Positions 34,341 through 44,425 of a DNA stretch of 64,000 nucleotides are shown here, in pieces; positions within the stretch are counted from its first letter, which is position 1, and every line of letters begins with the position of its first letter. Under the pieces are notes generated by a model. That model was not told where the DNA came from. It ran no database searches and saw only the letters and a program-made list of their open reading frames with translations. This DNA is from the human T2T-CHM13v2.0 reference genome, Homo sapiens, in NCBI RefSeq assembly GCF_009914755.1, contig NC_060946.1; one strand, written 5' to 3'. The translations under genes and the position numbers were made by a program.

Positions 34341-35322
34341 GGATGAGGATGACGCTCCTCTGTGTGAAGACGTGGAGCTACAAGACGGAGATCTGTCCCC
34401 CGAAGAAAAAATATTTTTGAGAGAATTTCCCAGATTGAAAGAAGATCTGAAAGGGAACATTGACAAGCTCCGTGCCCTCGCAGACGATATTGACAAAACC
34501 CACAAGAAATTCACCAAGGCTAACATGGTGGCCACCTCTACTGCTGTCATCTCTGGAGTGATGAGCCTCCTGGGTTTAGCCCTTGCCCCAGCAACAGGAG
34601 GAGGAAGCCTGCTGCTCTCCACCGCTGGTCAAGGTTTGGCAACAGCAGCTGGGGTCACCAGCATCGTGAGTGGTACGTTGGAACGCTCCAAAAATAAAGA
34701 AGCCCAAGCACGGGCGGAAGACATACTGCCCACCTACGACCAAGAGGACAGGGAGGATGAGGAAGAGAAGGCAGACTATGTCACAGCTGCTGGAAAGATT
34801 ATCTATAATCTTAGAAACACCTTGAAGTATGCCAAGAAAAACGTCCGTGCATTTTGGAAACTCAGAGCCAACCCACGCTTGGCCAATGCTACCAAGCGTC
34901 TTCTGACCACTGGCCAAGTCTCCTCCCGGAGCCGCGTGCAGGTGCAAAAGGCCTTTGCGGGAACAACACTGGCGATGACCAAAAATGCTCGCGTGCTGGG
35001 AGGTGTGATGTCCGCCTTCTCCCTTGGCTATGACTTGGCCACTCTCTCAAAGGAATGGAAGCACCTGAAGGAAGGAGCAAGGACAAAGTTTGCGGAAGAG
35101 TTGAGAGCCAAGGCCTTGGAGCTGGAGAGGAAACTCACAGAACTCACCCAGCTCTACAAGAGCTTGCAGCAGAAAGTGAGGTCAAGGGCCAGAGGGGTGG
35201 GGAAGGATTTAACTGGGACCTGCGAAACCGAGGCTTACTGGAAGGAGTTAAGGGAGCATGTGTGGATGTGGCTGTGGCTGTGTGTGTGTCTGTGTGTCTG
35301 TGTGTATGTACAGTTTACATGA
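34341..35322 (+). CDS. APOL6: Apolipoprotein L6, main coding exon (total CDS 50+982 = 1032 nt, 343 aa)
   Basis: Acceptor ttcatttctcctcag|G at 34340/1. ORF 34372..35322 has ApoL hallmarks: FLREFPRLK, BH3-like KLRALADDID, hydrophobic LLGLALAPATGGGSL, AFAGTTLAMTKNAR, KHLKEGARTKFAEELR coiled coil. Confidence 0.97.
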
Positions 35323-35479
35323 ATGTTCCTCAGGACATGGCATACAATGGCCTTGGAGGTCCAAATAATATCAAGTACATCTTGGAGATGAGGGTGCCTG
35401 TCCTGGACAGACCTCGGCATGCCTTCTGTTTCTCCTTCAATGCTCCTTAAGGCCTATGTGCTGGGAAAAGGGTCTTCCC

Positions 35480-35792
35480 TGTTTGTTTGTTTGTTTGTTT
35501 GTTTGTTTGTTTTGAGACAGGGTCTCTGTTGCCCAGGCTGGAGTGCAGTGGCGTAATCTCGGCTCACTGCAACCTCTGCCTCCTGAGTGCAAGCAAGTCT
35601 CCTGCCTCAGCCTCCCAAGTAGCTGGGATTACAGGCACGCACCACCACGCCCAGCTAATTTTGGTATTTTTTTGTAGAGACAGGGTTTCACCATTTTGGC
35701 CAGGCTGGTCTCGAATTCCTGACCTCAAGTGATCCACCCACCTTGGCCTCCCAAAATGCTGGGATTACAAGCGTGAGCTACCCTGCCCAGCC
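35480..35792 (-). mobile_element. Antisense Alu in APOL6 3' UTR with (GTTT)n tail
   Basis: TSD gggtcttccc at 35470-35479 and 35793-35802. Confidence 0.94.
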
Positions 35793-35837
35793 GGGTCTTC
35801 CCAGTTTTAACAAAGAGGTCACAGAGCCACAGGCGGA

Positions 35838-36247
35838 GTTAGGAACTAAATTGTCTCCTCCTCCCAATTCATATGTTGAAGTCCTAAACCAAAATGTGGC
35901 TGTATTTAGAGATGGACCCTTTGGGAGGTAATTAGGGTTGACTGAGGCCATAGGGTGAGGTCCTAACCCGATGGAATTGACTTCTTTATAAGAGGAGGAG
36001 GAAATACAAGAGGGCCTCCCCACCCCTGCTGCACACCTACACTGAAGGAAGGCTATTTGCAGATGCAGCAAGAAGGCAGCCATCTGCAAGGCAGAAGAAG
36101 AGAGCCCTCACCAGGAACTGAATAAGTCAGTCAGTCTGGGACTTCCAGCCTCTAGAACTGTGAAACAATAAATTTCTGTGGTGTAAGCAACTCAATCTAT
36201 AGTAGTTTGTTACTATTTTGTTATAGCAACCAAAGATGACTAAGCCA
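35838..36247 (+). mobile_element. MLT1A-like MaLR LTR
   Basis: aattcatatgttgaagtccta ... ccagcctctagaactgtgaaacaataaattt ... gactaagcca. Confidence 0.8.
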
Positions 36248-43110: not shown

Positions 43111-43531
43111 GAGATGCCATCACTGGGCAAGTGTTCTGAAAACATCTTATCTGAATAACAGCAGTCCTGGAGAACATCTAGGGATCTAGCAAAGCGAGAG
43201 ATACATGAAGGACATAAAAACGTTTTTAGAAAGTCCTTGGAAACAGTTCTCATTTCAGACATGTAAGCATGAGCTAGGATGAAAAGTGATTTCATCCTGG
43301 TATCTGCAATTTTCACATTCATTAGGTTTCAACATATAAACTTTCAGGGGACACAGACATTCAGACTATAGCACCAAGCTGTAGAAGCTACATAGTTGTA
43401 GACCAGGGTCAGCAACCCAAGAAGCCTGACTTCCAAGCTGTGCTTTTAACTTCCCCACCATGTTGCACCTAAAGCTTTGGAGTTTTCCTGTGATTAGTGT
43501 TTTTGGTGTTGTTTTATTTTTTTTCTTACAG

Positions 43532-43621
43532 GAACTCTTGCAAGAAGAAAGGACTATGAGTTCAACTTTAGAGGGAGCCATGGGGACTAAACAAAATTCT
43601 GAGGCCCCCTCAACCATCTAA
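43532..43621 (+). pseudogene. Putative relic or alternative terminal coding exon of APOL6 (ELLQEERTMSSTLEGAMGTKQNSEAPSTI*)
   Basis: Very strong acceptor gttttattttttttcttacag|GAA, phase-compatible with donor AAA|GTGAGG at 35175/6; sits in a non-repeat island; last 10 codons run into the MER4 LTR. Confidence 0.6.
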
Positions 43622-44160
43622 ATGGACTTCCTTCTGGGCCAGGACACTCGAAAATTAAACCTGAAAGACTGGTTCAGGCCATGATGGGAAGTGGGAGTCG
43701 AACATGCCTCATCATACCCTCCAGCATTAACATCAACACAGACCTTAAGGCTGATAAGAAGCATTTACAATCTATTCTCTCTGAAGTCTTCTACCTGGAG
43801 GCTTCATCTGCATGATAAAACTTTGGTCTCCACAACCTCTTACAACCCAGGCATTCCTTTCTATCGATAATTACTCTTTCAACCAATTGCCAATCAGAAA
43901 ATTGTTATATCTACCTATAATCTAGAAGCCCCCACATCAAGTTGTTTTGCCTTTCTGGACAGGACCAATGTATATCTTAAATGTATTTGATTGATCTCTC
44001 ATGTCTCCCTAAAATGTATAAAACCACGCTGTTCCCCGACCACCTGGAGCACATGTTCTCAGGGTCTCCTGAGGGCTGTGTCACAGGCCATGTTCACTTA
44101 CATTTGGCTCAGAATAAATCTCTTCAAATATTTTACAGAGTTTAACTCTTTTTGTCAACA
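43589..44160 (+). mobile_element. MER4B-type solo LTR, 5' terminus clipped
   Basis: aaaattctgaggccccctcaaccatc...cctgaaagactggttcaggccatga...tttgtcaaca; lacks the TG start. Confidence 0.8.
44113..44118 (+). terminator. Candidate distal poly(A) signal of APOL6, supplied by a MER4-type LTR
   Basis: AATAAA at the LTR R-region position, with U-rich sequence downstream (ctcttttttgtc). Other sense LTR AATAAA signals at 36167 and 38418. Confidence 0.6.
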
Positions 44161-44425
44161 CAAAGGTGGGCTTTTAACTACCCCAGGGGCCTCTGAATGG
44201 GGTTACAGGGGACCAGGGCAGGGCTGGCAAGGCTGGCAGAGGAGAAACCCAGAGACTTACCAAATGGGAGGTCCAAGTAGGTCCCTTAGACTTGGGAGGG
44301 ACAAGTCTACCTAAGAGGGCACTAGCAGCCCTCACTAGTGAGTGTTGTAATGGTCCTCCTGCCCCCCATCTCCATCCTCATTCCTTCGCTGTAACTCAGT
44401 CTCTCTGCTGTTTCAGTTCCCCGTT

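What the first reader, a model, noticed from the sequence alone, without database searches (positions are those of the whole stretch)
35161..44177. Hidden terminal exon: the APOL6 '3' UTR' looks like a retained 8.36 kb intron
Seen: right after the ApoL coiled coil (SLQQK) is a phase-0 donor AAA|GTGAGG (35175/6), weakened by A at -1. 8356 nt later, in a non-repeat island, a very strong acceptor (gttttattttttttcttacag|, 43531/2) opens in phase 0: ELLQEERTMSSTLEGAMGT, then KQNSEAPSTI* within a MER4 LTR. Splicing would give a 324-aa protein with a polar tail and a ~0.5 kb UTR ending at AATAAA 44113, instead of 343 aa and ~8.8 kb. Just past the LTR is AAG GTG GGC TTT TAA (KVGF*, 44163-44177), a possible original exon end. 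Inference: an ancestral exon 4 was disrupted by the LTR and the intron became retained, or this is a regulated splice switch that exchanges the C-terminus and removes the TE-rich UTR. My unverified recollection is that non-primate APOL6 C-termini resemble LLQE-R--SS--EGA-GT...GF*.
Basis: partly seen in the sequence, partly recalled or inferred. Interest (0 to 1): 0.88.

Follow-up and report, generated by a model that had tools for sequence, protein, structure and literature searches.

The report
Old APOL6 last exon in UTR
The long "3' UTR" of human APOL6 is an unspliced ancient intron followed by the remains of the gene's original last coding exon, so the cysteine-rich tail of the human protein comes from reading into that intron.

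Summary
A phase-0 donor (AAA|GTGAGG, 35175/6) and a strong acceptor (43531/2) lie 8356 nt apart. The acceptor opens ELLQEERTMSSTLEGAMGT, then 10 codons and a stop inside a dispersed LTR-like repeat.

Of 120 APOL6-family proteins, 32 carry a C-terminal tail that maps in frame to 43529-43588, directly after their exon-3 match. These include cattle, cats, seals, camel, pig and manatee. An orangutan model uses exactly the proposed junction.

A profile of 21 non-primate proteins finds only three window ORFs: exon 3, exon 2 and this one (E 3.4e-4).

The reference human tail (VRSRARG...CVCLCVCVYVQFT) is read-through of the old intron, across a (TG)n repeat. The long cysteine-rich version appears only in monkeys and apes.

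The repeat cut the old exon, with roughly 15-20 codons lost. It supplies the AATAAA that APOL6 uses.

A further relic exon lies at about 50209-50451, behind a second LTR-flanked insertion.

Whether human cells still use the junction could not be tested here. "KVGF*" is in the wrong frame, and the name "MER4" is unverified.

The parts
34341..35175 (+). Coding part of annotated exon 3 up to the old exon-3/exon-4 boundary (ends ...SLQQK)
   Evidence: Translation. Orthologue proteins diverge into different tails exactly after this residue.
35176..35181 (+). Old phase-0 splice donor GTGAGG (exon side AAA)
   Evidence: Sequence. It matches 7 of 9 consensus positions. 31 of 120 orthologue models that read through begin V-R.
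35176..35322 (+). Read-through coding tail of the reference protein (48 codons plus stop); this is the 5' end of the old intron
   Evidence: Translation. It aligns with the read-through tails of unspliced yak, cat, bear and whale models. The best 19-aa window has GRAVY 2.08, and the tail holds 5 Cys.
35261..35309 (+). Imperfect (TG)n / TGTGGC microsatellite encoding the Cys/Val/Leu-rich hydrophobic stretch
   Evidence: Tandem Repeats Finder rows. The same CVCV run appears in yak and cat read-through models.
35176..43531 (+). Retained intron 3 (8356 nt), annotated as 3' UTR
   Evidence: GT...AG boundaries. Pig read-through model P0104 still matches 35378-35479 (E 8.8e-7). An Alu lies at about 35495-35781.
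43511..43531 (+). Polypyrimidine tract and AG acceptor
   Evidence: Sequence. 15 of 16 pyrimidines; 10 of 5021 AG sites in the window are as good.
43532..43588 (+). Surviving 5' part of the ancestral terminal coding exon (ELLQEERTMSSTLEGAMGT)
   Evidence: Profile hit at E 3.4e-4, collinear with exon 3. 32 orthologue proteins hit it in frame. It is single-copy in the genome.
43589..44160 (+). LTR-like dispersed repeat. It supplies KQNSEAPSTI plus the stop (43589-43621), AATAAA (44113-44118) and the annotated mRNA end (44130).
   Evidence: Boundaries from alignments to other copies. Full-length copies are 80-87% identical, with 4187 first-look candidates of which 40 were scored. The first ~10 bases seen in other copies are missing here and no target-site duplication is present.
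44161..44425 (+). Continuation of the old terminal exon region after the repeat
   Evidence: Pig tails (P0098, P0099) match 44180-44227 at 62% over 16 aa, E about 0.04. The stretch is bounded downstream by the second insertion.
44426..50023 (+). Second, LTR-flanked insertion. The LTRs are 44426-44967 and 49171-50023, with an Alu inside the latter.
   Evidence: The LTR pair is 88% identical over the first 434 aligned bases (86% over the last 132) and runs TG...CA. A 4-bp duplication CGTT lies on both sides.
50209..50451 (+). Relic of a further downstream APOL6 exon (…KRMSLEPAQPHSSGKER…, then a decayed hydrophobic end and stop)
   Evidence: The mouse-lemur P0061 tail hits 50231-50290 (E 3e-4) and the bat P0066 tail hits 50240-50362 (E 0.002). 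An acceptor-like site lies at 50208/9 with 13 of 16 pyrimidines. The hydrophobic part is not significant by itself.

Best explanation
In placental mammals APOL6 has a phase-0 intron right after the C-terminal coiled coil (…SLQQ[KR]|). After it comes a short terminal coding exon of the type KLLQEKKPMSSSSEGTMGT-VPLPPA..GEAGSQ...

Both splice sites and the first 19 codons of that exon survive in human, at 35175/6 and 43531/2-43588. In the primate lineage an LTR-like repeat landed in the coding part of this exon. Roughly 15-20 exon codons and the repeat's own first ~10 bases were lost with it. The repeat now provides a new stop and the poly(A) signal used by all annotated APOL6 mRNA.

The reference human mRNA does not remove the intron. 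Ribosomes read 48 codons into it and through an old (TG)n microsatellite. This creates the cysteine-rich hydrophobic tail that is taken to be characteristic of human APOL6.

So the 8.8-kb "3' UTR" is retained intron 3, plus the exon-4 relic, plus the LTR. Splicing would give a 324-aa protein with a polar tail and a 0.5-kb UTR.

Shown: the ancestry of donor, acceptor and exon; the intron origin of the human tail; the repeat boundaries.

Inferred: the order of events, and my estimate (about 55%) that the junction is still used at a low level in human, with the intron-retaining mRNA dominant.
For: - Orthologue tails. 32 of 120 proteins map in frame to 43529-43588. In 19 of those 32 the hit begins at the very residue where the exon-3 match ends (in most of the others that measure overshoots).
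- Profile of 21 non-primate proteins against 2751 window ORFs: exon 3 at 1.4e-134, this ORF at 3.4e-4 (profile positions 333-358, directly after exon 3's 53-335), exon 2 at 7.6e-4, and the next ORF at 1.1.
- Orangutan model P0006 has the exact junction.
- Macaque, langur, baboon and capuchin models use the same donor position but join it to another short end.
- 31 of 120 models read through and begin V-R.
- The human tail aligns with the read-through tails of yak, cat, bear and whale models, including the CVCV run.
- Splice signals are strong.
- Repeat boundaries, the 5' truncation and the absence of a duplication.
- AATAAA is present at the same place in other copies and lies 12 nt before the annotated end (hub table).
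- Pig tails match 44180-44227 beyond the repeat.
- Mouse ApoL6 is 321 aa, with RYRKLQR at about 286-292. So it has about 29 residues after the junction and no Cys-rich tail (PMC10762002, passages; Mus pahari P0102).
Against: - No human transcript, junction read or protein entry with the spliced tail was found. RefSeq lists no such exon (hub table). Searches restricted to the C-terminal 50 residues of P0006, over proteins of 30-552 aa, returned only the orangutan model with that tail. Clustering at 90% identity could hide a human entry.
- P0124, a 43-aa ORF from an unnamed read assembly, runs unspliced through the acceptor.
- The donor has A at -1.
- A-to-I editing is reported inside the "UTR" in blood RNA, so the intron is present in much of the RNA (PMC10137963, passages).
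- Individual tblastn E-values for the 19-codon exon are weak (0.007 to 9.3). The case rests on their consistency and on the profile.
- Most orthologue proteins are automatic gene models.
- No non-human DNA could be examined. The -1 base, the presence of the repeat in monkeys, and the exact deletion are therefore inferred from proteins.
Confidence: 0.85

Rival explanations
1. Dead relic. The exon and its acceptor are fossils, the junction is essentially never used in human, and the only functional product is the 343-aa read-through protein.
For: There is no human model or protein with the junction (hub table). The donor has A at -1. The read-through tail is kept open and ends ...FT in all 7 anthropoid clusters that show it. 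The intron sequence is present in RNA as an edited UTR. The downstream partner exon is decayed.
Against: The acceptor is among the 10 best of 5021 AG sites in the window. The 19 codons are still open and 60-72% identical to cattle, pig and manatee over 18-20 residues. An orangutan model uses the junction.
Confidence: 0.4
2. Live regulated switch. Human cells toggle between a hydrophobic-tailed 343-aa form with an 8.8-kb Alu-rich UTR and a polar-tailed 324-aa form with a 0.5-kb UTR, for example under interferon or feeding signals.
For: Both sites are intact and strong. Primate models use this donor with alternative ends. The two tails differ sharply in hydropathy: best 19-aa window 2.08 against -0.50 (whole tails 0.17 against -0.74).
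Against: There are no expression data of any kind here. No paper found mentions APOL6 splicing at this site.
Confidence: 0.2
3. The reference model is an artefact of unspliced pre-mRNA, and the spliced 324-aa form is the main human product.
For: The ancestral gene structure is the spliced one.
Against: The read-through transcript is the curated, selected RefSeq (hub table). Its ORF is kept in frame through a dinucleotide repeat in 7 anthropoid clusters. The recombinant 343-aa protein has distinctive activity (PMC8358165, passages), although that does not show which form cells make.
Confidence: 0.05
4. Chance: a cryptic donor and acceptor pair in a long UTR, with an accidental short ORF.
For: Short ORFs and pyrimidine-rich AG sites do occur by chance. 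A second comparably strong acceptor lies in the interval at 39273.
Against: The profile E-value is 3.4e-4 and the hit is collinear with exon 3. There are 32 consistent in-frame orthologue hits. The orangutan model matches.
Confidence: 0.02

Closest known systems
Terminal coding exon of non-primate APOL6 (cattle, cats, seals, camel, pig, manatee; mouse ApoL6, 321 aa)
   Same: Same position after the coiled coil, same phase, and recognisable sequence (…LLQE.[KR]..SS..EG..GT).
   Different: The human copy keeps only 19 codons, is cut by a repeat, ends in repeat-derived codons, and is not part of any annotated human transcript.
LTR exonisation and transcription termination in APOL4 (traces of MER41G in APOL1-4; PMC8557400, passages seen)
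   Same: Within the same gene family, an LTR supplies a terminal exon part and the transcript end.
   Different: A different gene and a different repeat. Here the LTR interrupts an existing coding exon, and the main mRNA reaches it through a retained intron.
Intron-retention or read-through C-termini (composite terminal exons) in general
   Same: The coding region runs past an unused 5' splice site into intron sequence until the first stop.
   Different: The retained intron is 8.4 kb and polyadenylation is not intronic. The new tail is encoded partly by a dinucleotide microsatellite and has been kept open across monkeys and apes.
C-terminal hydrophobic anchors of Bcl-2-family proteins (comparison made in PMC8358165)
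   Same: A single hydrophobic stretch at the extreme C-terminus of a death-inducing, membrane-active protein.
   Different: There is no sequence relation. Anchor function is untested for APOL6. Bat APOL6 models have a different hydrophobic end from a separate exon.

Membership tests
Ancestral APOL6 terminal coding exon | Lies downstream of exon 3 on the same strand and is joined in phase 0 after the SLQQ[KR] codon | tested here: met
Ancestral APOL6 terminal coding exon | Sequence similarity to orthologue C-terminal tails beyond chance | tested here: met
   The profile gives E 3.4e-4 among 2751 ORFs. 32 of 120 proteins hit in frame.
Ancestral APOL6 terminal coding exon | Orthology shown by a genome alignment (synteny at base level) | not testable with these tools
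   No non-human mammalian DNA is held. The inference rests on proteins only.
Alternatively spliced / retained intron | Canonical GT...AG with usable signals | tested here: met
Alternatively spliced / retained intron | Present unspliced in mature mRNA | tested here: inconclusive
   This rests on the hub's RefSeq table and on reported editing sites in the UTR. No reads were examined.
Alternatively spliced / retained intron | Spliced out in some human transcripts | not testable with these tools
   Only an orangutan model shows the junction. No human entry was found.
LTR-derived polyadenylation site | Dispersed repeat of LTR size whose copies begin TG and end CA | tested here: met
   The repeat is about 570 bp, with 40 of 40 scored copies 80-100% identical. 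6 of 7 other copies examined carry a TG about 10 bases upstream of where this copy begins, and one of the two 3' ends examined ends ...CA. This copy ends CA but lacks the first ~10 bases.
LTR-derived polyadenylation site | The AATAAA belongs to the repeat and precedes the annotated 3' end | tested here: met
   The same hexamer is seen in copy L007 and in the copy at 52231-52434. The annotated end at 44130 lies 12 nt after it.
LTR-derived polyadenylation site | Association with retroviral internal sequence, and the family name MER4 / ERV1 | tested here: inconclusive
   12 ORFs from two 10-kb stretches starting at the first copy of two same-strand copy pairs on chromosome X gave no Pfam hit. No repeat library is available.
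ApoL domain protein (PF05461) | ApoL domain in exon 3 | tested here: met
   All 120 listed relatives carry a precomputed PF05461, with E down to 2e-204. The window protein itself was not scanned.

The most novel reading that the evidence does not exclude
APOL6 has repeatedly needed a hydrophobic C-terminal anchor. The ancestral gene could splice on to a downstream exon, kept in bats (…LLKVVNWY*) and surviving as a relic in human at about 50209-50451. Two retroelement insertions cut that exon off in primates. Monkeys and apes then re-invented the anchor by reading through intron 3 across a (TG)n repeat. The old donor and acceptor remain a live switch that lets human cells choose between an anchored, membrane-disrupting form and a soluble 324-aa form, while also shedding an 8.4-kb Alu-rich UTR.
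Probability: 0.15. Interest if true: 0.8.

Novelty: new member of a known kind. Interest (0 to 1): 0.6.

Why it matters
The cysteine-rich predicted transmembrane C-terminus is treated as the distinguishing functional feature of human APOL6. It has been proposed to drive its membrane disruption and possibly its targeting (PMC8358165).

This work indicates that the tail is a monkey-and-ape novelty made from intron and microsatellite sequence. Mouse ApoL6, the model for the adipocyte and lipolysis work (PMC10762002), carries the older polar tail instead. Results may therefore not transfer between the two species for anything that depends on the C-terminus.

It also predicts a concrete, testable second human isoform (324 aa, short UTR). 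It gives a clear example of a retroelement that truncated a coding exon and took over polyadenylation of an interferon-induced gene.

In the open-access papers I could search, I found no description of this. Smith & Malik 2009 could not be read, and transcript databases such as GENCODE could not be consulted.

Tried and rejected
I repeated the comparison using whole stored proteins read from file.
- I looked for a human counterpart of the monkey end DGTGQSTA. None reached 5 of 8 matches on the + strand of the window. Only 6 chance-level 4-of-8 matches lie downstream.
- I looked for a human spliced isoform in the protein database and found none. A 29-aa query was too short.
- P0124 is an unspliced ORF and gives no information on splicing.
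- The class of the repeat could not be settled. Pfam found nothing in 12 ORFs from two 10-kb stretches starting at the first copy of each of two chromosome-X copy pairs, so "MER4" stays unverified.
- The decayed hydrophobic end at 50398-50451 compared with the bat tails ranks only 42nd to 655th of 2751 ORFs. It is supported by position alone.
- 50242-50286 (KDVTGTC...) resembles the human read-through tail at E 0.08-2. Because blastn between the two regions finds only Alus and LTRs, I treat this as chance.
- The missing codons (VPLPPA..GEAGSQ) were not found anywhere downstream.
- The literature searches found nothing on this point: 0 papers; 4 papers, of which only PMC9167876 was opened; it merely lists APOL6 in an expression table; 0; 1, irrelevant; 9, none on this point in the listings and passages read. 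One search was too loose to be useful.
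Full report
**What is in the sequence.**
The annotated APOL6 coding region runs from exon 2 into exon 3 and ends at 35322. Immediately after the codons for ...SLQQK the DNA reads AAA|GTGAGG. 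The boundary 35175/6 is in phase 0, since 50 + 835 = 885 nt of coding sequence precede it. Reading on gives the reference tail VRSRARGVGKDLTGTCETEAYWKELREHVWMWLWLCVCLCVCVYVQFT*.

At 43511-43531 there is a pyrimidine tract and an AG. From 43532 the frame is ELLQEERTMSSTLEGAMGTKQNSEAPSTI*.

By a simple count the donor matches 7 of 9 consensus positions, like the annotated exon-2 donor. The acceptor has 15 of 16 pyrimidines, and only 10 of 5021 AG sites in the window are as good. I could not run MaxEntScan or SpliceAI.

**Is it an old exon?**
The protein database holds mammalian proteins. A search with the exon-3 translation returned 152 relatives, of which 120 were listed. I located the residue equivalent to K295 in each and looked at what follows.
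- 32 of 120 have tails of the type KLLQEKKPMSSSSEGTMGT.... By tblastn these map in frame to 43529-43588. They include cattle, big and small cats, hyena, seals, mustelids, camels, hippo, sperm whale, pigs, moles, vesper bats, a gopher, aardvark and manatee.
- 31 of 120 read through the boundary and begin V-R, as a GTGAGG-like donor would encode.
- 41 of 120 have other tails. About ten of these look like diverged versions of the same exon by eye (galago, beaver, deer mice, mice, sheath-tailed bats).
- 16 of 120 stop at or within three residues of the boundary.

A black rhinoceros protein (P0122) found later has the same tail.

The single E-values are weak (0.007 to 9.3) because the exon is only 19 codons. 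However, every hit falls at the same place and in the same frame. In 19 of the 32 the hit begins at the very residue where the exon-3 match ends.

A profile built from 21 whole non-primate proteins, searched against all 2751 stop-to-stop ORFs of the window, found exactly three ORFs below E 1:
- exon 3, at 1.4e-134;
- the ORF holding 43532-43618, at 3.4e-4, using the profile positions that directly follow exon 3;
- exon 2, at 7.6e-4.

The next ORF scores 1.1.

An orangutan model (P0006, 315 aa) ends with the human peptide through ...GAMGTK, directly after ...SLQQK. Macaque, baboon, langur and capuchin models use the same donor position but join it to a different 8-residue end. I could not find that end in the window.

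**Where the human tail comes from.**
Aligning the read-through models shows that the anthropoid coding tail is the translated 5' end of the old intron. Yak, cat, bear and whale models share VR..., then ...G.AL-TG..., then ...AYG/AYW. In yak and cat a CVCVCV run follows. In human that run is an imperfect (TG)n/TGTGGC repeat at 35261-35309.

The long tail ending ...FT is seen in all 7 monkey and ape clusters that read through: the chimpanzee/human cluster, two gibbons, colobus, marmoset, squirrel monkey and owl monkey. Their length differences are all in frame. Lemur, galago, tarsier and jerboa read-through tails stop within 2-13 residues.

This hints at selection on the tail in anthropoids. It is weak evidence, because these are gene models chosen to have open frames and I had no DNA for a dN/dS test.

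The tail's best 19-residue window has GRAVY 2.08 and the tail contains five cysteines. The spliced tail scores -0.74. A JBC paper describes this extension as unique to APOL6, predicted transmembrane and cysteine-rich, and probably responsible for membrane breakage. In the passages I read it says nothing about an intron origin (PMC8358165).

**The repeat.**
43480-43588 is single-copy in the human assembly. From 43589 the sequence is a dispersed repeat. Alignments to other copies run from 43589 to about 44160. Full-length copies of about 570 bp are 80-87% identical. There were 4187 first-look candidates, of which only 40 were scored.

Other copies carry about ten more bases at the 5' end, and 6 of the 7 examined have a TG there. 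One of the two 3' ends examined ends in CA. The APOL6 copy lacks those first bases and has no target-site duplication.

The AATAAA at 44113 is part of the repeat and sits 12 nt before the annotated mRNA end.

Beyond the repeat, pig tails match 44180-44227 (16 residues, 62%, E about 0.04). By eye, the mink ...YGGLSPGASEQN resembles aaa ggt ggg ctt tta act acc cca ggg gcc tct gaa (44162 onward).

The stretch VPLPPA..GEAGSQ.., roughly 15-20 codons, is absent from the window. I infer one deletion that removed it together with the repeat's 5' end. The final K of the orangutan model falls on the first codon of the repeat. The insertion therefore probably predates the human-orangutan split (inference).

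The family name MER4 and an ERV class could not be verified.

**Further downstream.**
Following bat and lemur tails led to a second relic.
- The mouse-lemur model P0061 (...ERMSLEAGQPHSGGKER...) matches 50231-50290 at E 3e-4.
- The free-tailed-bat model P0066 matches 50240-50362 at E 0.002.
- An acceptor-like site lies at 50208/9.

Between 44425 and 50024 lies an insertion flanked by two LTRs, 44426-44967 and 49171-50023. They are 88% identical over the first 434 aligned bases (86% over the last 132), run TG...CA, and the second contains an Alu. A 4-bp duplication CGTT lies on both sides. So 44161-44425 and 50024 onward were once contiguous.

Four bat-type proteins end in a hydrophobic ...LLKVVNWY-like stretch. 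The human frame at 50398-50451 reads FLILSDLAAILKVVHRH*, which looks like its decayed copy. This similarity is not significant on its own, ranking 42nd to 655th of 2751 ORFs.

**Use in human.**
This remains open. RefSeq has no such exon (hub table). The protein database has no human entry with the spliced tail among proteins of 30-552 residues, although clustering at 90% identity could hide one. One unnamed 43-residue ORF runs unspliced through the acceptor. RNA editing is reported within the "UTR" (PMC10137963). No paper found in five searches addresses it.

**Verdict.**
The "ancestral exon disrupted by an LTR, intron retained" reading is well supported. The "regulated switch" reading is untested.

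This is a new example of known processes: intron read-through creating a C-terminus, and a retroelement truncating an exon and donating a poly(A) site. A related LTR case is already described for APOL4 (PMC8557400). It has practical consequences for how human and mouse APOL6 are compared.

Noticed in passing
window 50209-50451: Relic of a further downstream APOL6 exon. Mouse-lemur and free-tailed-bat APOL6 tails match 50231-50362 (E 3e-4 and 0.002). An acceptor-like site precedes it, and a decayed hydrophobic end plus stop follows in another frame.
   Followed up: partly
window 44426-50023: LTR-flanked insertion: two direct repeats of about 540 bp, 88% identical over most of their length, TG...CA, with a perfect 4-bp duplication CGTT and an Alu inside the 3' repeat. 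It separates the old exon-4 region from the downstream relic exon. Its internal part has no ORF over 110 aa.
   Followed up: partly
window 32104-32151 (annotated 5' UTR part of exon 2): This stretch is open in frame with the start codon and homologous to a coding N-terminal extension (ENHLTPGDTD..LVPQRLL-DNQ) in monkey and many non-primate APOL6 models. The human and ape start Met replaces a Leu of those proteins. Non-primates have about 10 extra residues here that include their own Met.
   Followed up: partly
window 24109-24360 (exon 1): Macaque and baboon models translate exon-1 sequence as a long N-terminal extension (79-82% identity to the window), but the human frames contain stops.
   Followed up: no
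window 35378-35479: The intron stretch just past the human stop is still 59% identical at the translated level to a pig read-through model (34 residues, E 8.8e-7). This is unusually good conservation for intron sequence and may mark a splicing control element.
   Followed up: no
window 51021-52434: A second copy of the same repeat family as 43589-44160, in the same orientation and broken by an Alu. The two are not especially similar to each other (72-88%), so they do not look like a provirus pair.
   Followed up: partly
proteins P0009, P0011, P0012, P0014 (monkeys): Old and New World monkey models join the same donor position to a short end (DGTGQSTA-like) that has no recognisable counterpart in the human window. 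A langur isoform (P0010) instead continues into Alu-derived sequence.
   Followed up: partly
proteins P0026 (sea lion) and P0077 (yak) against window 43527-43589: These two models read the old terminal exon in a different frame. The yak read-through tail reaches it after only 47 codons, which implies a much shorter intron there (about 143 nt) than the 8356 nt in human.
   Followed up: no
proteins P0053, P0057, P0066, P0084, P0103, P0107, P0111: Seven APOL6-family entries end in long hydrophobic, transmembrane-like C-termini of at least two unrelated sequence types. Five are named bat models; P0053 and P0057 come from unnamed read assemblies. This suggests that hydrophobic tails arose more than once in this gene.
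   Followed up: no
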